The notes beneath the pieces are model-generated. The model did not search any database and was not told the origin of the DNA. It was given only the letters and a program-made list of their open reading frames with translations. The position numbers were made by a program, and so were the translations under genes. From an uncultured virus (IMG/VR IMGVR_UViG_3300033069_001715) (lineage: Duplodnaviria > Heunggongvirae > Uroviricota > Caudoviricetes), in the IMG/VR virus record IMGVR_UViG_3300033069_001715: a DNA stretch of 20,000 nucleotides, one strand, 5' to 3'. Numbering within the stretch: the first letter of the stretch is position 1; every line of letters begins with the position of its first letter. Shown here one piece after another: positions 3,008-20,000 of the stretch.

Positions 3008-3021
3008 AGACAGCGCCGTCT
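3008..3021. promoter_or_regulatory. degenerate copy of the dispersed palindrome (AGACAGCGCCGTCT)
   Basis: GACAGCGCCGTC at 3009..3020 has one mismatch to GACAGCGCTGTC and sits right after the TAA of 3021..4241. The minus strand reads TAAGACGGCGCTGTCTGAACTA, versus TAAGACAGCGCTGTCGCTGAACTA at 5794 on the plus strand. Confidence 0.65.
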
Positions 3022-4241
3022 TAGATGTGGCAATCGACAATGGTGAGATAGTGATCGTTTGGAATGCTGTCGAAGATCTGCTTGAAAACCTTCGGCCAAT
3101 CCTCAACCTCGTTGGTTGAAGTTCCAAACCAACCCATCTCACCGTTTTGCATCCACTTTCCGTCTTTGACAACCGCCCAAACCGTTAGCGGCTCGGCCTG
3201 CCGCACCCACTGCTCAATCGTCTGGCCCTTCAGCTCAGGCAATTGCCAAGTGGATTCCCAAACGTCTGCTGCGTACTTGGCGTCTTCAGGAAGCCACTCC
3301 AAGAACATGGATCGATAAGCACCGCCCTTAGGTCTTTGATCCTCTGGCAAGGCCTTCCAGATCTCATGATGCTCCTCACACAGATGAATCGCCCGCTCCA
3401 TCTCTGGTCGCGTGACAACTCGCTGTTTCTTCTTGAGCACCTGGTCAATGCAGTCATCGAGCCACTTGTAGCCGTTGGACATCTGGAGGGCGTGCATGGC
3501 GTTGATATCCAAATCTCCCTTGCGGGAACTATCACAACGGCCCGGTATCCGTCCGTTGATGAAACCTGGATAGATCATGTCGATGATGTTGACAATAGCC
3601 TGCTCAAGTGAGGACGACGCTCCGCAGGGAGCGTTGCTGATGAACTTGCCGGTGTAACGCCCGCCAACACTCCACCAATCCCACTGGGCGTTAGGATTGG
3701 TTCGCTTGATGACTCGTTGAACATCGCCGTTTTCGTCCAAACGGATGTAGCCGTACTTATGCTCCCCATCCAATTCTGGAGACTCAGCAGTCGCAATCGA
3801 CTCATATCCTGTGTTACTGATCACGAACTCCAAAAACGTCATCGCCTCGTTTAACTTCTTGTCAAGCTCAATAGCACCTTCTGGCAAGAAGTGAACTCTC
3901 GCGGCGTAGCCTCGGCCGTCACCCCAATCACGACTGGTCCAAAACAAACCATCGCCTTGCCCAGTTCCGGCGATCGGTCCGATCTTCTTGGACTCCTCTT
4001 CTGTCGGCACGCGAAAAAACTGATCATCCCATTTGACGTGCTCAGTGCCGTCAGCCAGCCGAATCATCGGCTGCGTCTCCCTCTCGTATTCATCCTGAAG
4101 CGATTGGGTTCGGTCTACGTCTACAACATATTCATTTCGCACACCAGTGCACTCGAACTCGTGATACGGTCCAAGCACCTTATCGAGAACCTTACCTGTT
4201 GGCGGCTCACTGGTGACGACTAGAACTGAAAAGTGGCTCAT
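3021..4241 (-). CDS. conserved phage hypothetical protein (406 aa)
   Basis: Motifs MSHFSVLV, NPNAQWDWWSVGGRY, GEMGWFG and terminal IVDCHI match my recollection of a widespread uncharacterised phage family. Confidence 0.88.
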   Translation of the reverse strand: MSHFSVLVVTSEPPTGKVLDKVLGPYHEFECTGVRNEYVVDVDRTQSLQDEYERETQPMIRLADGTEHVKWDDQFFRVPTEEESKKIGPIAGTGQGDGLFWTSRDWGDGRGYAARVHFLPEGAIELDKKLNEAMTFLEFVISNTGYESIATAESPELDGEHKYGYIRLDENGDVQRVIKRTNPNAQWDWWSVGGRYTGKFISNAPCGASSSLEQAIVNIIDMIYPGFINGRIPGRCDSSRKGDLDINAMHALQMSNGYKWLDDCIDQVLKKKQRVVTRPEMERAIHLCEEHHEIWKALPEDQRPKGGAYRSMFLEWLPEDAKYAADVWESTWQLPELKGQTIEQWVRQAEPLTVWAVVKDGKWMQNGEMGWFGTSTNEVEDWPKVFKQIFDSIPNDHYLTIVDCHI

Positions 4242-5789: not shown

Positions 5790-5811
5790 TGTTTAAGACA
5801 GCGCTGTCGCT
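5790..5811. promoter_or_regulatory. dispersed palindromic motif, putative operator or protein-binding site
   Basis: TGTTTAAGACAGCGCTGTCGCT, identical over 22 bp to 16709..16730. Palindrome at 5797..5808; intergenic and adjacent to the RBS. Confidence 0.8.
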
Positions 5812-6078: not shown

Positions 6079-6311
6079 ACGAACCCCTCGATGTAATCCC
6101 GCATTTGCTTCTCGGTATTGAGCAACCCATTAACCAACAGTGGGAATCCCAAGTCCTGAATTATGGCCTTGAGATCGCGAGTTCCCTCATGCTTCATCAC
6201 GTCACTGGAAAAGGAATCAAACGCCTGTCGATAATCACCAGCCTCAACATACTGCATCGCCCTGTCCTTGCACCACTGAAGGTGCTCGGCCCTTGTCATT
6301 GGCTCTTTCAA
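6075..6311 (-). CDS. conserved small phage hypothetical protein (~78 aa)
   Basis: The motif RAEHLQWCKDRAMQY...SDVMKHEGT resembles a recurrent phage family (from memory); coupled to neighbours. Confidence 0.8.
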   Translation of the reverse strand: MKEPMTRAEHLQWCKDRAMQYVEAGDYRQAFDSFSSDVMKHEGTRDLKAIIQDLGFPLLVNGLLNTEKQMRDYIEGFV

Positions 6312-6769
6312 CTTAGCTTCCTCACCAGCTTGTCAAGCTTCTTGGCGATCTCTTTGGCTCCGACAATGAGCGTCTTCAGCTCTGTAGCTGCAGCCTTCTT
6401 TGCCATAGGCTCACGAGTTGGCACTGGTCGTTTCCACGCCGCACGTTTGCCCTTCTTTTTCTTCTTGGGCGGAAGTTTCTTTTTAACCTTCACCTCCTTG
6501 GGCAAGTACATCGCGTGATCAGGCAAGATCGTGATATTCGCCTCTGGATTTCCCGGTGTTTGGTGATCAGACAGATCCACCGCATAAGCGAAGTGGCCGA
6601 CTTTGGCATAAGGTGCCAGATTTCCCTCAAGATCGTAAAAGGGCCCACAACAGCCGTCCGTCCTGGGCAAAATAGTATTCAACTTCTCCAGTCGATACCG
6701 CCCCAGGTCATACGTCTCGCCCTGGTTAGTTCCCTTTGGAAAGGTGTACACGCGAATTAAATCGTTCAT
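6308..6769 (-). CDS. hypothetical protein with Lys-rich C-terminal tail; paralog of 19591..19989
   Basis: AAAGGAGAG RBS. N-terminal RVYTFPKGTNQGETYDLG aligns with RVTTFRDGQNQGEVIDLG. Tail contains KKKLPPKKKKKGKR. Confidence 0.85.
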   Translation of the reverse strand: MNDLIRVYTFPKGTNQGETYDLGRYRLEKLNTILPRTDGCCGPFYDLEGNLAPYAKVGHFAYAVDLSDHQTPGNPEANITILPDHAMYLPKEVKVKKKLPPKKKKKGKRAAWKRPVPTREPMAKKAAATELKTLIVGAKEIAKKLDKLVRKLS

Positions 6770-7371
6770 TTCTCTCCTTTGTTTTTGATTCCTAGTTCTT
6801 CATTATCCAGCTGAATGGCGCGGGCGAGCCAGAGTAGTGCCTGCCTGACACGCCCGTGACGTCCGCCGCCGATCCCTGTCCTGCAGCGAATGCTGGGTAG
6901 TGGATAGGGCTTGCTACCTTCGTTCTGCACGTTCTCCCACTCCTGGGCGCTCAAGTGACAGTCACCGTCAGTAGCAACATATACCGAGAAATAGGTAGCC
7001 TCGTTGGAGCCCTTGTCGTCGCAGTAGAACGTGTAGGCGTGGTTCATCTGCAGCCCCTCAGGCCACTGCGGACTGAGCACAAGGTTGTCTGGGGGAAGGC
7101 GATCACAGTTTACGTCTAAATACGCCAAGTGATCGTAACCCGCGAAGTCTGGAGGCTCGTCAGCATTGACAGCTAGATATATTCTTGGCTTATCGTCTTC
7201 GTCTTCATCGTCTTCATCCTCATCGTCTTCGTCGTTGTCCTCATCAAAGACAATCCCGCTGACTGGGATCATCTCAAAGGACTTCATCATCGTCAAACCG
7301 ACAGCAACCTCTTCAACAAGCTGCTCGTCGGTCATCTTCTGCGCAGCCCTCAGCACATCAATCCACCGCAT
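6766..7371 (-). CDS. hypothetical protein with internal poly-Asp/Glu tract (201 aa)
   Basis: AGGAG RBS; DEDNDEDDEDEDDEDEDD linker between two apparent domains. Confidence 0.85.
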   Translation of the reverse strand: MRWIDVLRAAQKMTDEQLVEEVAVGLTMMKSFEMIPVSGIVFDEDNDEDDEDEDDEDEDDKPRIYLAVNADEPPDFAGYDHLAYLDVNCDRLPPDNLVLSPQWPEGLQMNHAYTFYCDDKGSNEATYFSVYVATDGDCHLSAQEWENVQNEGSKPYPLPSIRCRTGIGGGRHGRVRQALLWLARAIQLDNEELGIKNKGEK

Positions 7372-7666: not shown

Positions 7667-8322
7667 CGCGGCATCTTCTTAGTTGGAACTTTCTTACCAG
7701 GCCTAGCAGAAACGACCTTGGTACCAGGCTTGACCTTAGGCGGCGGGAACGCGGCGACGAGTTTCTGCATCGCTGGACCAGCCTTATCCATCTTTTGCCT
7801 AACCTCGGTGAACATTACAGACAGCGCTGTCGCAAACTCAGCCAACTCCTTCTCCAGCTTTTCAGAGTACGGGTGCTCGTCCAGATAGCTGAGATCTTTG
7901 GAGCCCTCGCACCAGCCAGGAATCAAGCTATCAAGATGGGTGTAACGAGCAATACCTCTGACGTCGGATGTCAGTACCCGCTTCTCATACACGCCAGCAA
8001 CAAACCCGATGCAAAGTCGCGGAGCAAAGCTTATATCGTTGTCGTGATAGTGCTTACCACCGATCGTAGCGTTGAGATTGCCGCTGACCTGACACAAAAT
8101 GACCTTCTCCGTCTTGGTAGTACTGGTAAGGTACCTACTGACCGCATCCTGGTACCTTCGAAGGACCTCCTCCTTAGTCGTGCCAAGGACGCTTTTCTGG
8201 TCCAGCATGTCTACGACCGGCGATGGGAGTTCAGCGCTAAAGCGACCCGCGGCGTCGCACTTGATCACCCGCTTATACGTCTGACCGGCTACCTGGACAT
8301 TCTCCGTGCTAATTATTGGCAC
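7663..8322 (-). CDS. hypothetical protein with Pro/Lys-rich tail (219 aa)
   Basis: AGGAGG RBS before the GTG start; contains one exact copy of the palindromic motif. Confidence 0.85.
   Translation of the reverse strand: MPIISTENVQVAGQTYKRVIKCDAAGRFSAELPSPVVDMLDQKSVLGTTKEEVLRRYQDAVSRYLTSTTKTEKVILCQVSGNLNATIGGKHYHDNDISFAPRLCIGFVAGVYEKRVLTSDVRGIARYTHLDSLIPGWCEGSKDLSYLDEHPYSEKLEKELAEFATALSVMFTEVRQKMDKAGPAMQKLVAAFPPPKVKPGTKVVSARPGKKVPTKKMPR
7819..7833. promoter_or_regulatory. intragenic exact copy of AGACAGCGCTGTCGC
   Basis: Exact 15-mer with the palindrome at 7820..7831; read in frame as A-T-A-L-S within 7663..8322. Confidence 0.65.
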
Positions 8323-10219: not shown

Positions 10220-10554
10220 CTCAACTTAAAAACTGCCGAATATGTCTTGTTCTACGTGCTCTAAACCGTGAACGCGTGATCAAAATGATCAGGCCTGTAC
10301 CTTGCAAAACAAACCTGACATTCCCAAAACGAAGGTCTTGGAGGCCAGACTGTCTTACCCACACTGGACGGGTAGATAGCGTGTATATCTGTTGACCCAC
10401 AATTGCACGCAAGCGCCGTAGAACAATGCAACGGACATGAAGCCCCAACAACGTCACTTGGCACTTCCTTGGAACCGCCCGTAATCTCTTCAGTCATAAT
10501 CTCTCCAATCGTCGCTATCGTTTATGTTCACCTCGACTTAAAAAGAGCTGAATA
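10216..10554. repeat. 27-bp imperfect direct repeat (10216..10242 and 10528..10554) flanking a small ORF
   Basis: TCACCTCAACTTAAAAACTGCCGAATA versus TCACCTCGACTTAAAAAGAGCTGAATA (23/27 identical). On the minus strand they encode YSAVFKLR* and YSALFKSR*. Confidence 0.75.
10261..10497 (-). CDS. small putative zinc-ribbon protein (78 aa)
   Basis: GGAGAG RBS; CNCGS...WECQVC motif pair. Confidence 0.75.
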   Translation of the reverse strand: MTEEITGGSKEVPSDVVGASCPLHCSTALACNCGSTDIHAIYPSSVGKTVWPPRPSFWECQVCFARYRPDHFDHAFTV

Positions 10555-10959
10555 GTACCAACGTCCAGATGCCTCACTTCGCTTAGACCAGAACGCCATC
10601 AGCGGCCACTCTTTGTGTGGCGGCAAGATCTTGTCAGCAGTGGGCTCGTCATAGTGAAATCCGTACGCGTGGTAATAGCCTGTTGGAGGCAAGTTACCAG
10701 ACAAACGAACCGACTTCTCGCCAGCCTCTACCAACGATTTATCTCTATCAACCATGGCCGTAACCTCTCTGGCGCAAAACGACTCTGAATCTGCGATCGA
10801 TAGTTCGGGTAACCGCTCTACCGATAGCTGTATCGGCGGCTTGGCCTTGGAGTACTCCGCCTGAAGAAATATCCCAGCCAGCATCAAGCAGACTAACACG
10901 CAAATGAACAGCACAAAGACCACTAAATCGTAACCTGTAAACTTGCTGGCCATGCTCAC
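10528..10959 (-). CDS. membrane-anchored hypothetical protein, tandem paralog A
   Basis: N-terminal TM segment (LVVFVLFICVLVCLMLAGIFL); PPTGYYHAYGF and RWYYSALFKSR motifs shared with 10956..11396. Confidence 0.85.
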   Translation of the reverse strand: MSMASKFTGYDLVVFVLFICVLVCLMLAGIFLQAEYSKAKPPIQLSVERLPELSIADSESFCAREVTAMVDRDKSLVEAGEKSVRLSGNLPPTGYYHAYGFHYDEPTADKILPPHKEWPLMAFWSKRSEASGRWYYSALFKSR

Positions 10960-11396
10960 CTTCTCCTGTAAAGAACTGAGTAGTAAGTCCTTGGGGACTC
11001 CATATTGCGGTCAATGAAATAACTCACCAGCTGATAGTTCTCACCTGACGACTCCATCTTCGAAATGCTCACGTGCTGCAAGCTGTACCCGAACTTATGG
11101 TAGTAGCCCGCTGGTGGAAACGTTCTAGCAAGCAGCTTTGGCTCTTCGCCGTCCTGGGTCGCCTTGCGTTCATCGACAAGCATCTGAAGAACTTGGGCCC
11201 TGACGAACTGGTTTACATCAAAGCTCTTATCAACCTCGTCATCGCTCTGTGAAACCTCAACTACCACGTGAGCGTCGGGACGTTTAGGTCTGACCCGTAG
11301 CATCGCCAGCACGACGACAATCGCCACTACAACAACAAACGCTGCAACCTCACCAATAAGCGAAAGTGCAGCGTCAGAAAATTGGAACTTGGACAT
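10956..11396 (-). CDS. membrane-anchored hypothetical protein, tandem paralog B
   Basis: GAGGAG RBS; N-terminal TM segment (VAAFVVVVAIVVVLAML); PPAGYYHKFGY and RTYYSVLYRRR motifs. Confidence 0.85.
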   Translation of the reverse strand: MSKFQFSDAALSLIGEVAAFVVVVAIVVVLAMLRVRPKRPDAHVVVEVSQSDDEVDKSFDVNQFVRAQVLQMLVDERKATQDGEEPKLLARTFPPAGYYHKFGYSLQHVSISKMESSGENYQLVSYFIDRNMESPRTYYSVLYRRR

Positions 11397-11407: not shown

Positions 11408-11422
11408 GCGACAGCGCTGTCT
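11408..11422. promoter_or_regulatory. dispersed palindromic motif, opposite orientation
   Basis: GCGACAGCGCTGTCT is the reverse complement of AGACAGCGCTGTCGC. It fills the gap between the TAA of 11423..11671 and the GAGGAG RBS of 10956..11396. Confidence 0.8.
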
Positions 11423-13972: not shown

Positions 13973-15673
13973 TTAACGTTTGCTTTTGGCCGCCTCACGA
14001 GCAACCGACTTCAGCTTGCCGTGTTTCTTCGCAAAGCCTGGGCTCAAGAGCTTAGCATAGCCTGCACTGATAGCATCCCCATGACAGGCCAGCACCAACT
14101 CATGGAACGAGTTATAGAACTCAGGGGTATGCAGGTGCGTGTCTTCGGTTGAGCTGTCATGTGTCAACTCATGAATCAGCACCGACGCGACATTGCCGAT
14201 TCCCCGAAGCGTCATAGTTTGACTCTTTAGGAATGCCCTATCGAAGGTGATGGTTGTTTGTCCGTCAGTCCAAGCCTTCGCAGTTCCCTCGCTATCTCCA
14301 ACAAACAAGTTTCTATAGCGCCAGCGGTTTCCATCGGTCAGCTTCGTAAAGTAAGCTGACTTTCGAACAGCGGCTTGCATGATCGAAATCAAATCTATCC
14401 ACCGCTTCTCATGAGCATTCCACTGCTTTCGATCAACCACCTTCTTGGTCATATTCAGGGTCTTGCGGTAGTACTCCAACGACTGAGGTTTGAGTGCCGA
14501 GACAAAACTATGTGAATATAGCGCCGAGTGGATCTTTCCGATCGCCGAAATGATCTGATTAGTTCCTGAAGCAATACAGTTCCATCCATCTTGTCGCTTT
14601 GCCACCAGCACCTGTGGTAGTCGCTGCATCACTGCGTCACCAAAAGCGGCATCGGCAGCACTGTCACCGATCTGTACCACGGTCTGGAACTTCATCTCAA
14701 TATCTTTGAGCGAGAACTTCTTTCCATTAACAGCTGTAACTGTTGATGAAAGCCAAAGAAGCGCAAGATCCTCCCGAGTGATGTCACCCCTAAAAAATCG
14801 ATATGCGTAGCCCCTGAGAACGTCACACTTGGTCAGCTCCGGAGGCTTATCACCCTTTGGTTTGCGCGGCACCTCCTTCTTGATTCTCTGCCACACCTCG
14901 CACTCGGACAGTGGCTGGTTTCTGGCTACGTTCAATCGCATCGCCGTCTTGGATATAGCAATGACTTTGCCAACCATGTCAGGAAGTCGCTGCGTTCCAA
15001 CAAAGAGTCCATAGTTATAGAGCTCGATCCCGCTGTACCCGTTGGGGTCGAACTTGTAGTACGCCGTATCGGTAACCTGATCCCATGTACGCTTATCCAG
15101 GTCGCCACCTACAACCTCGTCGTTGATCTTCACCGCAATGGGCAAATACTTTAGGTCGCGACGAAGCTCGTCAACCAGGTCAAATAGATCCAGCGACTTG
15201 AGCGGCTCATAGAGCTCGATCTCCACCACCGTCCCGTTAACCTTGACCTTAGAGTGCTCGAGCAAAAACGCAGGTTGATCCTCATCAGAATCGCGAATGT
15301 CGACAATGATTACGTTGTCCCTGGTTCTCCATGTATTCACTCCAAAGGCGAACATCTGTCCCCGCCCAACGCAGAATTCACCGTAGGTCTTCGTCTGGTC
15401 CTCTTCCGGAGGTTGTCCCAGCGTGGCGAAACGGTTTCGAATCGTCTGCTCATCCATTCCCGCGCCGTTGTCGACAATCCGAACCTGGCTTGGCGTTATC
15501 TCAACTTCAAGCTCGGTACACCCAGCGTCGATACTGTTCATGATGCCCTCACAAATGGCATCTGATAGTTCGCCCGCCTGTCGCTCTATGGTTAGGCGAA
15601 TCATCCGTCGGTGCAGCTTCAGCTCAATCTTCTCGCTCTTAAGTCGCTTTGTTTTTGTAGTCATGACTTCCAT
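13973..15673 (-). CDS. GHKL (Hsp90/MutL/MORC-like) ATPase fused to a C-terminal HExxH zincin-like metallopeptidase domain
   Basis: GHKL motifs EGIMNSIDAG (N box), VDNGAGM (G1), GEFCVGRG (G2-like) and NGTVV. C-terminal LIHELTH...HLHTPEFY. Alternative start at 15664. Confidence 0.88.
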   Translation of the reverse strand: MEVMTTKTKRLKSEKIELKLHRRMIRLTIERQAGELSDAICEGIMNSIDAGCTELEVEITPSQVRIVDNGAGMDEQTIRNRFATLGQPPEEDQTKTYGEFCVGRGQMFAFGVNTWRTRDNVIIVDIRDSDEDQPAFLLEHSKVKVNGTVVEIELYEPLKSLDLFDLVDELRRDLKYLPIAVKINDEVVGGDLDKRTWDQVTDTAYYKFDPNGYSGIELYNYGLFVGTQRLPDMVGKVIAISKTAMRLNVARNQPLSECEVWQRIKKEVPRKPKGDKPPELTKCDVLRGYAYRFFRGDITREDLALLWLSSTVTAVNGKKFSLKDIEMKFQTVVQIGDSAADAAFGDAVMQRLPQVLVAKRQDGWNCIASGTNQIISAIGKIHSALYSHSFVSALKPQSLEYYRKTLNMTKKVVDRKQWNAHEKRWIDLISIMQAAVRKSAYFTKLTDGNRWRYRNLFVGDSEGTAKAWTDGQTTITFDRAFLKSQTMTLRGIGNVASVLIHELTHDSSTEDTHLHTPEFYNSFHELVLACHGDAISAGYAKLLSPGFAKKHGKLKSVAREAAKSKR

Positions 15674-15691
15674 TTGCTTTGTGGACTAACG

Positions 15692-15717
15692 AAAAGGGGC
15701 GAGTGTTACCTCGCCCC
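15692..15717 (-). terminator. intrinsic (rho-independent) terminator-like hairpin
   Basis: Minus strand reads GGGGCGAG-GTAACA-CTCGCCCC-TTTTCGTT: an 8-bp GC-rich stem followed by a U tract. Confidence 0.75.
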
Positions 15718-15747
15718 CATGCCTCTATTTACTAACACCTACAGCAA

Positions 15748-15915
15748 CTAGCCGTAGGTTGACGCCTTCTGTCTAGGGCGCATCCTCGACAAGCTCTCCC
15801 ACCAAATATCTTTGAGAGTCCGAATCAGCTTCAGGACGTGCTCAACAGCAGTGTATCCGCCATAGCCATAACTTCCTTCACACCAGTAGTACAGAAAGGC
15901 CCAAACGACGAACAT
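15748..15915 (-). CDS. small aromatic-rich protein (55 aa), below the ORF-track cutoff
   Basis: Hand-translated MFVVWAFLYYWCEGSYGYGGYTAVEHVLKLIRTLKDIWWESLSRMRPRQKASTYG*; TAAGGAG RBS. Confidence 0.72.
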   Translation of the reverse strand: MFVVWAFLYYWCEGSYGYGGYTAVEHVLKLIRTLKDIWWESLSRMRPRQKASTYG

Positions 15916-15924
15916 GCTGGCTCC

Positions 15925-16107
15925 TTACTTCTGACCTGGCTCGCACTGCTTATCAGCTGGAATCAGCTTCCGACATTCAACGCACGCGTGCTGGACTGTT
16001 CCACCAGTCTTGATGAAGCACCAGCCCTTGGGAAGCCCACCAGCAACGTGTTCAACCTTCTTGCAAGTATCGCACATGAACGTGCTCTTTCTACCCAGAT
16101 AGGTCAT
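15925..16107 (-). CDS. small zinc-binding protein (60 aa)
   Basis: GAGGAG RBS; CDTC...LPKGW...HACVEC. Confidence 0.8.
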   Translation of the reverse strand: MTYLGRKSTFMCDTCKKVEHVAGGLPKGWCFIKTGGTVQHACVECRKLIPADKQCEPGQK

Positions 16108-16395
16108 CTACCAACTCTCCTCGTTGTAGTAATCTTCCTGTGCCTGTAGGTCAGCTTCCGCCTGTTGGTCGATTTTCTCCTGCTCATCGATCTGCTGATA
16201 CCGATAAGCGTGTTCGCAATTGACCGAGTCGCACATCTTCCCGAATTCTCCAGTGCATGTTGCAGGCTCGCCGCAGTAGATGCATTTTTCGACCGGGTCG
16301 TTGTGGCAATAAATGCACCGTCCGTCCGCAAGCGGCGTGTCGTTGTAAAAGCGATGGCCGCATCCTGGACAACTGGGGACGCTATTGGATGCCAC
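16108..16395 (-). CDS. Cys-rich (multi-CxxC) protein with acidic tail (~95 aa)
   Basis: Track ORF 16108..16515. Start moved to GTG 16395 with AAGG upstream. Motifs CPGC, CIYC twice, C...CDSVNC. Confidence 0.72.
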   Translation of the reverse strand: MASNSVPSCPGCGHRFYNDTPLADGRCIYCHNDPVEKCIYCGEPATCTGEFGKMCDSVNCEHAYRYQQIDEQEKIDQQAEADLQAQEDYYNEESW

Positions 16396-16696
16396 AAACA
16401 GCCTTGGCGTTGGCCAGAAGCTCTGGATCAACAATGTCCGTCCGGCCGTAGCCCAGTTCCACCACCGCCTCCGCAGCATCTCGCACTGCCTGTGTGAAGA
16501 TGGTGCTGCAGGCAATGTCGCTGGCCGTCTTGTCGGTAGCTGCGTTATCCATAGCCCAGCTGGTCAGAATGTTCTGAACAGCTCGAACTCGATATCGCTC
16601 GTCGCCGCGGCGATACTCATCAGTATCCAGAACCGGCTTGATCTCCGGTGCGCATCGTTCCAAAAGTGTGTTGGCGTATTGTTCAAGAAGTTTCAT
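16382..16696 (-). CDS. hypothetical protein (104 aa)
   Basis: AAAGGA RBS just downstream of the palindromic motif. Confidence 0.8.
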   Translation of the reverse strand: MKLLEQYANTLLERCAPEIKPVLDTDEYRRGDERYRVRAVQNILTSWAMDNAATDKTASDIACSTIFTQAVRDAAEAVVELGYGRTDIVDPELLANAKAVCGIQ

Positions 16697-16708
16697 GCTT
16701 TCCTTTCG

Positions 16709-16730
16709 TGTTTAAGACAGCGCTGTCGCT
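16709..16730. promoter_or_regulatory. dispersed palindromic motif, putative operator or protein-binding site
   Basis: TGTTTAAGACAGCGCTGTCGCT, identical to 5790..5811; palindrome at 16716..16727; intergenic. Confidence 0.8.
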
Positions 16731-16742
16731 ACAGTTTCAGGC

Positions 16743-16762
16743 CTCAGCGTATACCCGCTGAG
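16743..16762. other. intergenic hairpin without a U tract
   Basis: CTCAGCG-TATACC-CGCTGAG (7-bp perfect stem) between the Clp-N stop and the palindromic motif. Confidence 0.5.
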
Positions 16763-16769
16763 TTGGGCT

Positions 16770-17543
16770 TTAGCTCGTCAACTTTACCATCTTGGCGATT
16801 CGCATCCAATCTCGCGCTTCGCCTCCCTTCTCACCTCGCTCACCTGGCACTACATACCGTGGATGGCCGGTATCGCCCATGTAAACAGCCACCGTCGTCT
16901 TAGGAGGATTGGGAGTTCCAACATTGAAGGGACTCCCAGGAGCTGCCAGGGCGTACCGAAAGTAAGCCTCATAGATCCCAGGTGACACCAGCTCTGGGTC
17001 TATCGGATAGACGTGAGTCTCTGTAGCTGGAGGCTGTCCTGGTGACTCCGGCTGTTCCGATTCGACTTGCTCGCTATGAACAAGAACAGCACTGTAAACG
17101 TCTCTGGGCGTACCGTTGACCTTTACAACCGACAGCACCGCTTTGTTAATATCGCAGCCTACTACCGACAGCACCGCCCCAGATACGCTATCGGCGCCAG
17201 CTGAGATCAGCCCTAAAAACAGGTGCTCAGTGCCAACGTAATTGTTGTTCAAGTCCCTGGCATACGCCATCGCTACCTCCATGACCTTCTTAAATCGCGG
17301 AGTTTGCGGTAAGCGTCCAACAACTATTGACGCAGGGCCAGGTTGCAACATCGCTCGCGTGCGTTTGACTATGTCAGCACCGTCGAGCTGAAGATCTTCG
17401 AGTATGAGCCTAACTGTCCCTTCACCTTCGATAAGACCGATCAGCAAGTGCTCGGTCCCCAGGTACTCATGATTAAGACCTAGTGCAACGTTATTGGCGT
17501 TCTGAACGGCCTTGCGAGCTCGATCGGTAAATCGTTCATACAT
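16770..17543 (-). CDS. stand-alone Clp N-terminal (double Clp-repeat) domain protein with an unrelated C-terminal region and no AAA+ module
   Basis: Start moved to ATG 17543 (GAGGA RBS). MYERFTDRARK...NHEYLGTEHLLIGL...LPQTPRFKKV...NYVGTEHLFLGL is the ClpC N-domain. No Walker A/B motifs follow. Confidence 0.92.
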   Translation of the reverse strand: MYERFTDRARKAVQNANNVALGLNHEYLGTEHLLIGLIEGEGTVRLILEDLQLDGADIVKRTRAMLQPGPASIVVGRLPQTPRFKKVMEVAMAYARDLNNNYVGTEHLFLGLISAGADSVSGAVLSVVGCDINKAVLSVVKVNGTPRDVYSAVLVHSEQVESEQPESPGQPPATETHVYPIDPELVSPGIYEAYFRYALAAPGSPFNVGTPNPPKTTVAVYMGDTGHPRYVVPGERGEKGGEARDWMRIAKMVKLTS

Positions 17544-17961
17544 CTTTGCGTTCCTCAGCTCTAAAGTCTTCGTACCACATGTGACACAGCCATCGACAAC
17601 GATTGTCAATCAAGTAGTCCCGATAAGGATACTCCAAAAGCTGCAGGTACTTATCCCAACCTTCATCTGTGCCCATCACCGCCCAGATCTCGCCTCGTAT
17701 CGCCAGCCAATTGGATAACGTGAAGTTGTCCACATGATTAACCAGTGCCTGCTGCTTGACCTTTGGTACCCGGCGGCAGTTCTCGATCTCGGGAGCCGCC
17801 TGCTCGAACGCCTTGTTGAGCAGGTCAGCTATGTTCCCAGCGATCGGCGAAAGCGGCAGACCTTCAACGCTGTCACGACTAAACCGATCATGCTTGATGT
17901 TGCGAGCTCTTTGAGCATTGTGCTCAATGAGTGACATCAGATGGTCATTCCAGGTTACCAA
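17536..17961 (-). CDS. hypothetical protein
   Basis: Track ORF 17536..17985; TTG 17961 after GGAGG is the more plausible start. Confidence 0.75.
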   Translation of the reverse strand: MVTWNDHLMSLIEHNAQRARNIKHDRFSRDSVEGLPLSPIAGNIADLLNKAFEQAAPEIENCRRVPKVKQQALVNHVDNFTLSNWLAIRGEIWAVMGTDEGWDKYLQLLEYPYRDYLIDNRCRWLCHMWYEDFRAEERKDV

Positions 17962-18329
17962 TCGAAAGCCTCCAGAAATGGGCAAATCTCACCGTCACGA
18001 TCAATCACCAAATACTTGCAATTGTACGAAATGGCAACCATGAGCATCTTGGCCAGATACTGACAGTCGTTGTTCTCGCACAACATCAGTAGATCGACCC
18101 TGTAATCCTTCTCAGTGGGAATCCAAATCCGGTAGCCCTCATCAAACACCTGGTCGACGTACATTCGCATATCGTCGCAACCACCAACTCCTCGCTCATA
18201 GCTAGCCTGAAGCCAACGACTGCACTCAACAGTGATGTGCGATATAGAGAGCACAAGCTCTCGGTTGATCTCCGGCTGCCAATCGAGATCGGCCATCAGT
18301 CTGTTTCGATCGACACCCTCAGAATTCAA
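17955..18329 (-). CDS. DUF5983-like protein
   Basis: LVLSISHIT...GYRIWIP...YNCKYLVIDRDG...LEAFDW matches my recollection of the DUF5983 pattern. TTG 18329 after AGGAG chosen as start. Confidence 0.7.
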   Translation of the reverse strand: MNSEGVDRNRLMADLDWQPEINRELVLSISHITVECSRWLQASYERGVGGCDDMRMYVDQVFDEGYRIWIPTEKDYRVDLLMLCENNDCQYLAKMLMVAISYNCKYLVIDRDGEICPFLEAFDW

Positions 18330-19419
18330 AGGTACTTCTCCTATGGGTTGCTGCAGGGCCAAAACCGTTGATTAGGCGGTATTGGCAAAACTTGTCTTCC
18401 AGCCACGCCGGAAGTTCGTAAACGTCCTGATGGTTGATCGCCAGTATCGAAGGATGCGCCAGCAGCATCGCAGTTTCCAGGAGATGCGACGCCCAGTGGA
18501 AAGTGCGAAACTCACCCTGAGGCCCAGTGTTGCCGTTAGATGGCTCTTCCCACTGAGGATTCATTGTCGAACAACCGGTATCACCGTCACCGTGCCTAGT
18601 CAGGTAGGTACGCATGGCTCCTACGATTTCATACTCCTTGCCTTCTCCCACCAGCTCTATCGCATCGCGAGCAGTGACGGTGCTCCAGGTGTTGACGCCC
18701 TTCTCGCCATAAAGCTCGTCCAGAAGAACGCCCTGGCCGGCTTCAAAAATGCACGGCTGGTCAAGCTCATCAATCCAGCCTGTGCTATCAATGGCAAACC
18801 GCATCGTTTTCCACATGTCCCGGTAGAGCTTACGAGGCGATACTTCAAACTCCAGCAGTTCCGGACCAAGGCTACTGTGCATGCTTGGACCATGAACTCC
18901 GATGATGTTGTGGACCTTAGCCACGCACCAATCACGAATCATGTCCAGCTTGCGAATTGCGACAGAAGCATCAGCAAAGTCTGCAACCCGAAGATCCAGC
19001 CCACAAAGGGATGTTTCTCGGGTGTAGCCTACGCCTACGCCGCACGTGTTGTTCCGTCGCTTCCACTTCTGTTCAATCCGATTGAGTGCTCGGTGATAAA
19101 TGGTTGTCACCAAACACTCCCCGTCGACTTTGTTGATCGGAGAGAACCCCAGGTCTCTAAGAGCTTTGCGCTCCGCCGCCATGGCGAAAGGTTCAATAAT
19201 GAACTTACGACCAACAAGCGTCTTTGAGCCAGCAAGTGTTCCAGAACCAAACTGGGAGAACACGTGGCTCTTACAGTCGCTTGTCACAACGCGGTGACCG
19301 CATTGATGTCCGCCGCAGTACTTCACAACGTCAGGTAGGCCAAGCTTTCTCGCTAGAAAATCGACCGTCGCCCCCTTGCCTTCATCTCCAAACCCAAGTC
19401 CTACCACCACGTAATGCAA
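18319..19419 (-). CDS. purA: divergent adenylosuccinate synthetase (PurA)-family protein
   Basis: Motifs GLGFGDEGKG (P-loop), GGHQCGH, TCGVGVG, FEAGQGVLLD, RTYLTRHGDG and GFGP. TTG 19419 follows AGGAG (track start 19446). Family is confident; exact activity is not. Confidence 0.85.
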   Translation of the reverse strand: MHYVVVGLGFGDEGKGATVDFLARKLGLPDVVKYCGGHQCGHRVVTSDCKSHVFSQFGSGTLAGSKTLVGRKFIIEPFAMAAERKALRDLGFSPINKVDGECLVTTIYHRALNRIEQKWKRRNNTCGVGVGYTRETSLCGLDLRVADFADASVAIRKLDMIRDWCVAKVHNIIGVHGPSMHSSLGPELLEFEVSPRKLYRDMWKTMRFAIDSTGWIDELDQPCIFEAGQGVLLDELYGEKGVNTWSTVTARDAIELVGEGKEYEIVGAMRTYLTRHGDGDTGCSTMNPQWEEPSNGNTGPQGEFRTFHWASHLLETAMLLAHPSILAINHQDVYELPAWLEDKFCQYRLINGFGPAATHRRSTFEF

Positions 19420-19438
19420 GTTAACTCTCCTATTGAAC

Positions 19439-19594
19439 CTAGACAATCCATCCGAACATCCGTCCGATTACATAGAGCAGGGCCGCTACTCCAAGCAGAA
19501 CCGCCATCATTCCCAAACCTGCAAGAAGGCAGCAGCAACCGAAATCACTATCGGAAATCTTGCTCGCCTCCTCTTTAACCTTCTGAGTACTCAT
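19439..19594 (-). CDS. small single-TM membrane protein (51 aa), below the ORF-track cutoff
   Basis: Hand-translated MSTQKVKEEASKISDSDFGCCCLLAGLGMMAVLLGVAALLYVIGRMFGWIV*; ATGA overlap with 19591..19989; fills the gap. Confidence 0.75.
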   Translation of the reverse strand: MSTQKVKEEASKISDSDFGCCCLLAGLGMMAVLLGVAALLYVIGRMFGWIV

Positions 19595-19989
19595 AGCCAC
19601 TTAAACTCCGTCCCATGGTACGCAGTGCTGTGAACCTTACACCGTTTACCATGGTACGTACCCGTGTAGTAGCCGTCTTTGTCAGGCGGACCGGGGTCTA
19701 GTTCAATTCGCATGCTGCCTTGATCGTAATGGCGATTGAGATAGACCTTGTCAGCAGGATCTATCGAGATCGTTCCATCCTGTCTGAGCAAATACGCCTT
19801 GTCGCCCACAACTGCCCACTCACATGTCTTTCCAATGCTGGCAAGCAGTATGTTTGCACTGATGCACAAGTTAGCGGTGGGAGGTATCTGAATCTCCCTG
19901 ATCTCCAACTCGTGAACACCTAGGTCGATCACTTCGCCCTGATTCTGTCCGTCTCTGAACGTTGTTACTCTCAATCGTTTAGTTACCAC
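19591..19989 (-). CDS. hypothetical protein; paralog of 6308..6769
   Basis: Shares the RVxTFxxGxNQGExxDLG...AxVGxxAY...IxIxPxxxxYL domain. The start is near the window edge and uncertain. Confidence 0.8.
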   Translation of the reverse strand: MVTKRLRVTTFRDGQNQGEVIDLGVHELEIREIQIPPTANLCISANILLASIGKTCEWAVVGDKAYLLRQDGTISIDPADKVYLNRHYDQGSMRIELDPGPPDKDGYYTGTYHGKRCKVHSTAYHGTEFKWL

Positions 19990-20000
19990 GGGGATTTGTC

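What the first reader, a model, noticed from the sequence alone, without database searches (positions are those of the whole stretch)
16770..17543. Phage-encoded stand-alone ClpC N-domain: possible protease decoy or adaptor
Seen: a complete double Clp-repeat followed by a Pro/Glu-rich linker (ESEQPESPGQPPATE) and a short unrelated domain, with no ATPase. By eye the FTDR, GTEH, QTPR and second GTEH motifs are all intact. Known: the equivalent residues form the phospho-arginine and adaptor-binding pockets of B. subtilis ClpC, and actinobacterial ClpC2/ClpC3 are N-domain-only proteins that compete with ClpC1. Inference: the phage captured a host ClpC N-domain to sequester adaptors or marked substrates, or to recruit them through the C-terminal domain, and so rewires host proteolysis.
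Basis: partly seen in the sequence, partly recalled or inferred. Interest (0 to 1): 0.72.

Follow-up and report, generated by a model that had tools for sequence, protein, structure and literature searches.

The report
Phage-borne copy of ClpC's substrate-docking domain
A mobile element, probably a phage of planctomycete-like bacteria, carries a free-standing copy of the docking domain of the host's ClpC protein-degradation motor joined to a small domain with no known relatives, and it most likely interferes with which proteins the host destroys.

Summary
Window 16770-17543 (- strand) is an intact 257-aa gene. Residues 1-145 are a ClpC-type N-domain (Pfam Clp_N 3e-17; ClpC1 N-domain structures 3.5e-27). 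There is no ATPase. Residues ~146-257 form an orphan beta-rich region found in only one other protein lineage among 1.84 billion representatives.

The N-domain nests among Planctomycetota ClpC N-domains on a long branch. It keeps both phospho-arginine pocket motifs and K85, while 61 of 115 otherwise invariant positions have changed. A natural variant differs by 14 synonymous and 2 non-synonymous changes, so the gene is not decaying.

A McsB-type arginine kinase domain is found in 98 of 101 Planctomycetota genomes; MecA in 0 of 101.

The gene is not a one-off. Twenty-three IMG/VR viral contigs and mycobacteriophages Myrna/Phabba encode "ClpC N-domain + unrelated tail, no ATPase" proteins; 27 tails fall into 21 families.

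Best reading (0.45): a trans-acting N-domain mimic that competes with host ClpC for pArg-marked proteins or the kinase.

The phage origin of this window is likely but not shown, because it holds no hallmark gene. No binding was tested. Verdict: a new variant of a known kind, interest 0.6.

The parts
16770..17543 (-). Whole coding sequence, 257 codons plus TAA stop (16770-16772)
   Evidence: Open frame. Identical or near-identical proteins occur on other contigs, and there is a 256-aa ortholog, P0123. Changes in a natural variant fall mostly on third positions of this frame.
17109..17543 (-). ClpC-type N-terminal domain (residues 1-145), a double Clp_N repeat with FTDR/GTEH and QTPR/GTEH motifs and K85
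   Evidence: Pfam Clp_N 3e-17. ClpC1 and ClpC N-domain structures at 1e-24 to 3.5e-27. Foldseek top hits are almost all ClpC N-domains, but the model is poor.
17019..17108 (-). Residues 146-175: a predicted beta strand (148-157) followed by the Pro/Glu-rich segment ESEQPESPGQPPATE (161-175)
   Evidence: AF2 secondary structure, at low confidence. Nine of the 15 segment residues are identical in P0123.
16773..17018 (-). Orphan C-terminal region (residues 176-257): predicted small beta-rich domain ending in the fully conserved DWMRIAKMVKLT
   Evidence: No Pfam hit at E<=1. A HMMER scan of 1.84e9 representatives finds only itself and P0008, a fragment of P0123. AF2 pLDDT is 56.5, with strands at 70-80. 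No significant fold match: best Z 4.2, best BFVD E 0.045.
17552..17556 (-). Shine-Dalgarno-like GAGGA, 8 nt before the ATG. The upstream ORF's stop (17538-17536) overlaps the start.
   Evidence: Read from the sequence.
16743..16762 (-). 7-bp hairpin (CTCAGCG-6 nt-CGCTGAG) just after the stop, with no T run
   Evidence: Read from the sequence. Not called by the terminator scan.
16716..16727 (.). Palindrome GACAGCGCTGTC in the spacer between this gene and the next. It is one of 5 copies in the window, four of them 15-40 nt before a start codon and one (7820) inside an annotated ORF, and probably marks the start of the next transcription unit.
   Evidence: 5 matches against 0.10 expected, in 0 of 200 shuffles.

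Best explanation
A phage, or a phage-like mobile element, of a Planctomycetota-type host encodes a free-standing copy of the host ClpC N-terminal domain fused to a lineage-specific small C-terminal domain.

The copy kept the two phospho-arginine (pArg) pockets and K85 but remodelled most of the remaining surface.

Most likely it works in trans as a competitor of ClpC's own N-domains. It would bind pArg-marked proteins, and perhaps the McsB arginine kinase, which docks on the ClpC N-domain in Bacillus. That would withhold them from ClpCP and protect phage proteins or blunt the host's stress proteolysis. The C-terminal domain would supply oligomerisation (avidity) or a second binding specificity.

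Shown here: domain identity, descent, absence of an ATPase, purifying selection, pocket conservation, presence of the kinase in the presumed host phylum, and recurrence of the architecture in viral contigs.

Inferred: pArg binding, competition with ClpC, the effect on proteolysis, the role of the C-domain, the host, and that the element is a phage.
For: (1) ClpC-type N-domain without an ATPase.

(2) Descent. In a tree of 133 Clp_N domains, the P0001/P0121/P0123 clade (SH-aLRT 100) lies inside a 95-row clade (SH-aLRT 95). That clade holds Schlesneria, Planctomycetaceae, Gemmataceae, Pirellulales and Gimesia N-domains. It excludes Verrucomicrobiota, Lentisphaerota, Chloroflexota, Bacillota and the mycobacteriophage copy. 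The result repeats with viral rows added (98).

(3) Selective retention. Of 115 columns at least 95% invariant in 89 ATPase-bearing planctomycete-type ClpC N-domains, 54 are kept in both P0001 and P0123. They cluster at residues 2-11, 25-32, 69-70, 76-89 and 98-112. The other 61 changed, many identically in both proteins. The kept residues include the equivalents of T7, R9, E32, K85 and E106, which PMC12583610 (passages read) names as pArg1/pArg2 pocket residues and regulatory contacts.

(4) The same residues are the best conserved across 23 phage-borne N-domain-plus-tail proteins: K85 23/23, E106 22/23, R8 21/23, E31 20/23.

(5) Purifying selection. A variant contig in run X9 differs at 27 listed places inside the gene. 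Outside one indel-rich loop, 14 changes are synonymous and 2 are not (P = 2e-7 against 24.7% expected). The orthologs are 257 and 256 aa long and 57-66% identical in both halves.

(6) The ligand system exists in the presumed host phylum. An ATP:guanido phosphotransferase domain is found in 98 of 101 Planctomycetota genomes. The Gimesia copy passes NCBIfam 'protein arginine kinase' at 467 bits against a cut-off of 385. MecA is found in 0 of 101.

(7) Precedent. ClpC2 is an N-domain-like protein that binds pArg and sponges N-domain ligands (PMC10030653, PMC13345244). Phage SPO1 Gp53 targets ClpC (PMC6873191, abstract read).

(8) The stretch recurs at half or more of its words in 11 runs from 4 studies of riverine and wastewater metagenomes.
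Against: The window has no phage hallmark gene, is not in IMG/VR or the phage collection, and its 406-aa neighbour has no match in 401 Planctomycetota genomes. Both 'phage' and 'planctomycete host' therefore rest on indirect evidence. The neighbours' phage homologs come from phages of Proteobacteria and Actinobacteria.

A pure decoy needs only the N-domain. The conserved orphan C-domain, and the 21 unrelated tail families in the class, suggest that the tail does something specific, which fits an adaptor reading at least as well.

The pocket residues also hold the fold's helix caps together, so their conservation is not proof of pArg binding. T6 and T105 lie inside the peptide patterns used to find the viral set.

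The selection test rests on one variant contig, and 39 of its 79 differences were not displayed.

The structure models are of low confidence (pLDDT 59 and 56).
Confidence: 0.45

Rival explanations
1. Hijacking adaptor. The constant N-domain is a plug into the host McsB/ClpC system, by binding McsB, pArg or the ClpC M-domain. The variable C-terminal domain binds a chosen target. The target would then be brought to the kinase or protease and destroyed, or else shielded. This would be a bacterial analogue of viral substrate-receptor mimics.
For: Architecture across the class: one conserved N-domain and 21 unrelated tail families among 27 tails. Only one tail has a Pfam domain (HD_4). The C-domain of P0001 is conserved at 57-59% in its ortholog, including an invariant DWMRIAKMVKLT end. 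R8 and K85, which contact the M-domain and AAA1 in the ClpC resting state (PMC12583610, passages read), are kept.
Against: A free N-domain has no known way to hand cargo to the ClpC pore. No target or partner was identified. Many tails are short (55-95 aa) and look helical by eye, which would also suit simple oligomerisation. No binding test was possible.
Confidence: 0.2
2. pArg-responsive sensor or regulator in the manner of actinobacterial ClpC2. Ligand binding to the N-domain-like module would change oligomerisation through a C-terminal helix and thereby switch a second activity, such as DNA binding or phage gene control.
For: PMC13345244 (abstract and two sections read) shows ClpC2 oligomerises through a C-terminal helix that pArg disrupts. 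P0001 ends in a conserved predicted helix, 244-255. One viral relative (L049) has a weak HTH_IclR-like tail, 0.0045 and below cut-off. A palindromic operator-like motif recurs in the window.
Against: No DNA-binding domain is detected in P0001. The domain order is the reverse of ClpC2. P0001 keeps both pocket motifs, whereas ClpC2 keeps one (PMC13345244). ClpC2 is a much weaker match than ClpC1 (4e-11 against 3.5e-27).
Confidence: 0.1
3. Not viral. It would be one more of the many cellular stand-alone or fused Clp_N proteins of Planctomycetota, sitting on a plasmid, island or unbinned chromosome piece, with a housekeeping role in proteostasis.
For: Planctomycete MAGs hold many ATPase-less Clp_N proteins: tandem arrays, and fusions to a four-helix bundle, CoaX or ThiE. 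The window has no hallmark phage gene.
Against: The C-domain peptide pattern was not found in one genome for each of 185,579 species. The gene array lies on one strand, is tightly packed and is mostly ORFans. Six of 30 neighbours hit PHROGs. The 406-aa and PurA-like neighbours have homologs in 44 and 236 phage records. There are no tRNA, Rfam or defence hits. The closest N-domains in the second tree include IMG/VR viral ones. The branch is long, like the other viral copies.
Confidence: 0.12
4. A decaying clpC fragment evolving neutrally.
For: Only about 50% identity to N-domains that are about 90% alike among themselves by my reading of the sequences.
Against: 14 synonymous against 2 non-synonymous changes (P = 2e-7). 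Intact 256/257-aa orthologs. Motif-specific retention. A coupled start with an SD sequence.
Confidence: 0.02

Closest known systems
N-terminal domain of ClpC / ClpC1 (B. subtilis ClpC, S. aureus ClpC, mycobacterial ClpC1; e.g. PDB 3wdb, 2y1q, 5hbn)
   Same: The same double Clp_N repeat fold family, aligned end to end over residues 1-141 at about 40% identity. The pArg-pocket motif residues and K85 are kept.
   Different: It is not attached to any AAA+ module or M-domain. 61 of 115 positions that are invariant in planctomycete-type ClpC have changed. It carries an unrelated C-terminal domain.
Actinobacterial ClpC2
   Same: ATPase-less proteins built around a ClpC-N-domain-like module. They bind N-domain ligands (pArg, cyclomarin) and can act as sponges (PMC10030653, PMC13345244).
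   Different: ClpC2 is chromosomal. Its Clp_N-like module is C-terminal, behind a DNA-binding and oligomerisation part, and it keeps only one pArg site. It is a distant match (4e-11). P0001 has the module at the N-terminus, keeps both motif sets, and sits on a mobile element.
Mycobacteriophage Myrna gp251 / Phabba gp260 and PHROG 35667 (function unknown)
   Same: Phage genes encoding a ClpC-type N-domain plus a short tail and no ATPase. PHROG 35667 matches P0001 residues 1-165 at 2.1e-24.
   Different: Their N-domain is of the actinobacterial type and the tail is unrelated. Some records annotate them as 'Clp family protein, ATPase domain' although no ATPase is present. I found no paper on them.
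IMG/VR viral contigs with MYERFTD-type Clp_N + tail proteins (L030-L054)
   Same: The same architecture and the same planctomycete-type N-domain. 23 of 25 loci lack a Walker A. Seven of 20 loci have terminase, portal or head-protease genes within 6 kb.
   Different: Their N-domains are less diverged, the tails are all unrelated to P0001's, and no neighbour genes are shared with the window.
Phage SPO1 Gp53
   Same: A phage protein that acts on host ClpCP by engaging ClpC (PMC6873191, abstract read; N-domain binding as cited in PMC10030653).
   Different: Gp53 is an adaptor-like ligand of ClpC, not a copy of its N-domain. No sequence relation was tested or expected.

Membership tests
Pfam Clp_N (PF02861) double repeat | Two Clp_N repeats scoring above the curated cut-off | tested here: met
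   62.9 bits against a cut-off of 20.7, in two stretches.
ClpC-type N-domain (as opposed to ClpA/ClpB/ClpX types) | Best sequence matches are ClpC/ClpC1 N-domains over the whole domain | tested here: met
   ClpC1 and ClpC N-domains at 3.5e-27 to 1e-22. ClpB 2e-4. No ClpA structure listed at E<=0.01. Nested in a ClpC clade.
ClpC-type N-domain | Residues of the two pArg pockets (T7, E32, E106 in S. aureus/B. subtilis numbering) and K85 | tested here: met
   T6, E31, E106 and K85 are present in P0001 and P0123. Residue roles come from PMC12583610 (passages read).
ClpC-type N-domain | Actual binding of phospho-arginine or adaptors | not testable with these tools
ClpC / Hsp100 AAA+ unfoldase | AAA+ modules (Walker A/B), M-domain, ClpP-docking loop | tested here: not met
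   The frame ends at residue 257. Clp_N is the only Pfam family at E<=1. No longer form containing the C-domain was found.
Actinobacterial ClpC2 | N-terminal DNA-binding/oligomerisation part followed by a C-terminal Clp_N-like domain with one pArg site | tested here: not met
   The domain order is reversed and both motif sets are kept. The match to ClpC2 is weaker than to ClpC1. Features are taken from PMC13345244.
PHROG 35667 (phage Clp_N proteins, unknown function) | Significant match to the family profile | tested here: met
   2.1e-24, residues 1-165 on profile positions 11-170 of 235. The C-domain is not covered.
Tailed-phage genome region | Hallmark genes (terminase, portal, capsid, tail) on the same DNA | tested here: inconclusive
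   None among the 31 ORFs of the window. Six of 30 neighbours hit PHROGs of other kinds. The rest of the contig could not be fetched.
MecA-type ClpC adaptor pathway in the presumed host | MecA (PF05389) encoded in host-phylum genomes | tested here: not met
   Found in 0 of 101 Planctomycetota genomes searched. The control rang in B. subtilis and L. lactis.
McsB/pArg pathway in the presumed host | Protein arginine kinase encoded in host-phylum genomes | tested here: met
   PF00217 found in 98 of 101 genomes. The Gimesia copy scores above the NF002194 cut-off.

The most novel reading that the evidence does not exclude
Phages of Planctomycetota, and independently of Actinobacteria, carry a toolkit of 'ClpC N-domain plug + hypervariable tail' proteins. 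These would work as substrate receptors in reverse. The plug engages the host's arginine-kinase/ClpC degradation system, and each tail picks a different host or phage protein to be marked, degraded or shielded. This would be a prokaryotic counterpart of viral F-box or Vif-type hijacking of ubiquitin ligases. It would also imply that pArg-dependent proteolysis is a front line in phage-host conflict.
Probability: 0.15. Interest if true: 0.85.

Novelty: new variant of a known kind. Interest (0 to 1): 0.6.

Why it matters
ATPase-less ClpC N-domain proteins are known from Actinobacteria (ClpC2), and one phage protein (SPO1 Gp53) is known to manipulate ClpC. I found no description of phage-encoded copies of the N-domain itself in the searched literature.

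This gene, with at least 20 distinct viral relatives and the Myrna/Phabba proteins, points to a recurrent viral strategy aimed at the pArg/ClpC pathway. The lineages involved are Planctomycetota, where that pathway has, as far as I recall, not been studied, and Actinobacteria.

The idea is directly testable with a small soluble protein. If true, it would supply natural inhibitors or re-targeters of ClpC-dependent proteolysis. It would also give the first functional hint that arginine phosphorylation matters during phage infection.

Tried and rejected
- Whole genome of the window: none held.
- Earlier findings of the scan: none by place or by sequence.
- Near-identical DNA: only a 43-nt match in the phage collection, in an acidic-repeat region, and none in plasmids.
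- IMG/VR scan with P0001 alone: no relative.
- Metagenome scan with the P0001/P0008 alignment: six distant N-domain hits only, about 28% identity.
- Genome scan: 19 loci, N-domain matches only, nothing for the C-domain pattern WMRIAKM.
- C-domain HMMER scan: P0124 and P0125 rejected as translations of tandem DNA repeats, with 10 and 7 short repeated stretches.
- ESM Atlas for residues 146-257: no usable hit.
- AF2 of the full protein and of the C-region: pLDDT 59.4 and 56.5.
- Fold searches of the C-region: best VIA Z 4.2 (YopQ, a phage baseplate protein, RimP; small beta barrels) and best BFVD E 0.045. Neither is above noise, so no fold is assigned.
- C-tails of P0043 and Phabba gp260 against P0001's: no similarity, E 35 and 40.
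- Complex prediction (homo-dimer of P0001): tool not available, nothing folded.
- RNA evidence: no RNA holder listed.
- The 406-aa neighbour in 401 Planctomycetota genomes: nothing rang, with no positive control.
- PADLOC on 13 window proteins: no hits.
- Rfam and tRNA scans of the window: no hits.
- Sigma-70-type promoter scan of 15500-20000: none.
- Window neighbours against all fetched loci by tblastn: no shared genes.
- Trentini et al. 2016: not held by DOI or by PMC id, so the pocket residues are taken from PMC12583610 instead.
- Proximity of viral Clp_N genes to terminase or portal genes (7 of 20 loci): considered as a clue to a morphogenesis role and dropped, because it is not clearly above what 12-kb windows in 55-100-kb genomes would give.
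Full report
**What is there.** The window is a one-strand array of about 31 tightly packed ORFs on the minus strand, at 49-55% G+C. The finding corresponds to the ORF 16770-17543 (-), 257 aa. A longer frame from a TTG at 17609 exists. The ATG at 17543 is the likely start for three reasons. It is preceded by GAGGA with an 8-nt spacer. It overlaps the upstream ORF's stop. The ortholog P0123 and cellular ClpCs begin with the same MYERFTDRARK.

**Domain identity.** Residues 1-145 are a double Clp_N repeat (Pfam 3e-17, 62.9 bits against a cut-off of 20.7). They align end to end with solved ClpC1/ClpC N-domains (3.5e-27 to about 1e-22). ClpC2 (4e-11) and ClpB (2e-4) match much more weakly. No ATPase is present: the frame ends at residue 257 and Clp_N is the only Pfam family at E<=1.

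**The C-terminal part.** Residues ~146-257 have no Pfam match. A full HMMER scan of 1.84 billion representatives with residues 150-257 returned four proteins: the protein itself, P0008 (a fragment of the 256-aa ortholog P0123), and two translations of tandem DNA repeats that I reject.
- A pattern scan over one genome for each of 185,579 species found N-domain relatives only.
- The ESM Atlas gave nothing.
- AlphaFold models are weak, with pLDDT 59.4 for the whole protein and 56.5 for residues 146-257. They agree on four or five beta strands and a C-terminal helix or strand.
- Fold searches gave no match above noise: best Z 4.2 and best BFVD E 0.045.

The 'Pro/Glu linker' (161-175) follows a predicted strand (148-157). 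It is as conserved as the rest of the region in the ortholog, with 9 of 15 residues identical against 59% overall. It may therefore be part of the domain or a functional motif. With only two lineages, this is weak evidence.

**Descent.** Among 1900 hits of similar length and 4436 longer ones, the best are Planctomycetota proteins. Full-length ClpC of Planctomycetaceae, Schlesneria and Planctomycetales reach about 50% identity over the N-domain only. There are also many ATPase-less Clp_N proteins, including tandem arrays and fusions. No N-domain is closer than 50.7% to P0001. The planctomycete ClpC N-domains read are nearly identical to each other.

In a tree of 133 Clp_N domains (LG+G4, quick search, SH-aLRT only), P0001, P0121 and P0123 form a clade with support 100 on a stem of 0.75 changes per site. 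That clade lies inside a 95-row clade (support 95) with the Planctomycetota sequences. Verrucomicrobiota, Lentisphaerota, Chloroflexota, Bacillota and the mycobacteriophage copy lie outside it. A second tree with viral sequences gives the same placement (support 98). There are few columns for many rows, and deep forks are unresolved.

**Is it alive?** Yes.
- Near-identical proteins occur on other contigs, and a 57-66% identical ortholog keeps the same length and both halves.
- The stretch 16600-18000 is held at half or more of its words by 11 runs from 4 studies of riverine and wastewater metagenomes.
- One contig, in run X9, is a diverged variant. 27 of its listed differences lie in the gene. 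Outside an indel-rich loop (codons 71-79), 14 are synonymous and 2 are not (R45K, M65V). This matches protein P0121.
- With 24.7% of single-base changes synonymous in those codons, P = 2e-7.
- Caveats: this is one variant contig, and 39 of its 79 differences were not displayed.

**What was kept and what was changed.** Of 115 alignment columns at least 95% invariant in 89 ATPase-bearing planctomycete-type ClpC N-domains, 54 are kept in both P0001 and P0123 and 61 are changed.
- The kept ones cluster at residues 2-11, 25-32, 69-70, 76-89 and 98-112. These are the two FT(D)R/GTEH and QTPR/GTEH units plus K85.
- PMC12583610 (passages read) assigns T7, E32 and E106 to the two pArg pockets, R9 to an M-domain salt bridge and K85 to an AAA1 contact. 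It states that MecA covers both pockets.
- The equivalents here are T6, E31, E106, R8 and K85, all present.
- Many of the 61 changes are the same in both orthologs, for example V12A, E19V, K57D, E61R, A84F, E94Y and L109F. This points to a remodelled but fixed surface.

**Is the ligand system there?** An ATP:guanido phosphotransferase domain was found in 3 of 3 genomes behind the best loci and in 98 of 101 Planctomycetota genomes sampled. The control rang only in B. subtilis. The Gimesia protein passes the NCBIfam 'protein arginine kinase' cut-off, 467 against 385 bits. MecA was found in 0 of 101, with controls ringing in B. subtilis and L. lactis. So pArg and McsB are the known N-domain ligands available in the presumed host phylum.

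**A class, not a singleton.**
- PHROG 35667 (unknown function) matches residues 1-165 at 2.1e-24.
- tblastn against 50,697 phage records finds 23 records, none covering 80% of the query. They include mycobacteriophages Myrna and Phabba. Phabba gp260 is a 221-aa protein with an N-domain and a tail, and it lies 1.3 kb from the terminase.
- An IMG/VR scan with the alignment patterns MYERFTD and N[HN]NYVGT gave 25 loci on contigs of 10.9-343 kb. Of these, 23 encode an N-domain plus a 55-360-aa tail without a Walker A motif (20 distinct proteins). One is a full-length ClpC on a 10.9-kb contig. One stops after 24 codons.
- All 22 proteins scanned pass the Clp_N cut-off. The only tail domain above cut-off is HD_4, in L046.
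- The 27 tails (23 viral plus P0001, P0123, P0043 and Phabba) fall into 21 BLASTP families.
- Of 20 loci examined through 97 hand-picked flanking ORFs, 7 have a terminase, portal or head-maturation protease within 6 kb. Others have a DNA polymerase, helicase, methyltransferase or RNA ligase.
- In the second tree, 23 of 25 viral rows sit in the planctomycete-type clade. Phabba and L054 sit with an actinobacterial-type group. Viral branches are long (0.1-2.1, apart from the full-length ClpC on contig L034 at 0.03) against 0.007-0.08 for cellular ClpC.
- Across 23 distinct phage-borne proteins, K85 is 23/23, E106 22/23, R8 21/23 and E31 20/23. T6 (23/23) and T105 lie inside the search patterns and are biased.

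**Is the window a phage?** Likely, but not shown.
- For: the gene organisation. Six of 30 neighbours hit PHROGs. The 406-aa protein (3021-4241) has homologs in 44 phage records and the PurA-like protein in 236. There are no cellular housekeeping genes, tRNAs, Rfam families or defence-system hits. The C-domain was not found in the reference genomes.
- Against: no hallmark gene in 20 kb. No match in IMG/VR, phages or plasmids. No shared neighbours with the viral loci. No match of the 406-aa protein in 401 Planctomycetota genomes.
- The host assignment rests on the N-domain's phylogeny alone.

**Mechanism.** I commit to a trans-acting N-domain mimic that competes with ClpC's own N-domains for pArg-marked proteins, and possibly for McsB. 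The C-domain would provide avidity or a second specificity. My confidence is 0.45. The literature supports the principle. ClpC2 binds pArg and sponges N-domain ligands (PMC10030653 passages; PMC13345244 abstract and sections 3 and 5). SPO1 Gp53 shows that phages target ClpC (PMC6873191, abstract).

The main rival (0.2) is an adaptor or hijacker in which the variable tail selects a target. The extreme diversity of tails favours this reading, but no route from a free N-domain to the ClpC pore is known. A ClpC2-like sensor (0.1), a non-viral cellular paralog (0.12) and a decaying fragment (0.02) follow.

**Novelty.** Stand-alone Clp_N proteins and phage interference with ClpC are both known. Phage Clp_N genes are visible in databases but unannotated or misannotated. 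Three literature searches found no paper on them. The searched library lacks most subscription journals. I rate this a new variant of a known kind, with an orphan C-domain, and of moderate to high interest because the hypothesis is sharp and cheap to test.

Noticed in passing
window 3009-3020, 5797-5808, 7820-7831, 11410-11421, 16716-16727: The 12-bp perfect palindrome GACAGCGCTGTC occurs 5 times (4 exact, 1 with one mismatch) against 0.10 expected. Four copies lie 15-40 nt upstream of minus-strand start codons, with a similar TTAAACA...GGAG context at two of them. It looks like an operator or promoter element of the mobile element. In two runs, short pieces of other contigs also match 16694-16731.
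   Followed up: partly
window 18319-19446 (-): A PurA-like adenylosuccinate synthetase (Pfam 1.2e-32; PHROG 1211 '2-aminooxy adenylosuccinate synthetase' 6.6e-44). It scores far below the NCBIfam cut-offs of both PurA (95 against 402 bits) and PurZ (19.9 against 300). It has homologs in 236 phage records, mostly mycobacteriophages. Its activity is unknown, and it is not evidence for a Z-genome.
   Followed up: partly
window 16729-17997 versus a contig of run X9: All displayed differences of the variant contig lie at or above 17292 (81 differences and 10 paired 1-base indels over the piece). The 3' part of the gene appears identical. This suggests a recombination (mosaic) boundary inside the Clp_N gene near codon 84. 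39 differences were not displayed, so this is not certain.
   Followed up: partly
window 13973-15673 (-): A 566-aa protein with an N-terminal GHKL ATPase fold (HATPase_c_3, 2e-09). It has weak similarity to a BbrUII/HgiDII restriction enzyme and to MutL N-termini. A terminator-like hairpin on the minus strand lies just upstream, at 15718-15695.
   Followed up: no
window 17955-18362 (-): A protein with a DUF5983 C-terminal domain (9.9e-09), one ORF upstream of the ORF that abuts the Clp_N gene.
   Followed up: no
window 19591-19998 / 6308-6769 and 10528-10959 / 10956-11396 (-): Two pairs of paralogous ORFs within the window (32% identity over 91 aa, and 28% over 87 aa). The second pair is tandem and starts with hydrophobic segments.
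   Followed up: no
window 6766-7371 (-), around 7182-7224: An acidic Asp/Glu repeat gives the only nucleotide match to a known phage: Erwinia phage pEa_SNUABM_21, 43 nt. Probably low-complexity chance similarity.
   Followed up: no
L046:6001-6978 (IMG/VR contig): A viral protein that fuses a ClpC-type N-domain to an HD_4 (RelA/SpoT-type HD hydrolase) domain, 9.4e-13. It lies next to PRPP synthetase and kinase genes.
   Followed up: no
L030:8920-9543 and L033:8219-8842 (IMG/VR contigs): A ClpP-like head-maturation protease gene lies about 2 kb downstream of the viral Clp_N-plus-tail gene in two related contigs.
   Followed up: no
proteins P0127-P0162 and L008: Planctomycetota encode many ATPase-less Clp_N proteins: arrays of 2-4 N-domains, and fusions to a four-helix-bundle (PF05635), pantothenate kinase type III, thiamine-phosphate synthase, UVR motifs or membrane segments. 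As far as I know, this expansion is unexplained.
   Followed up: partly
Planctomycetota genomes G001-G106: A McsB-type protein arginine kinase domain is nearly universal (98 of 101 genomes), while MecA was not found (0 of 101). In the one Gimesia locus examined, the kinase gene is not next to clpC.
   Followed up: partly
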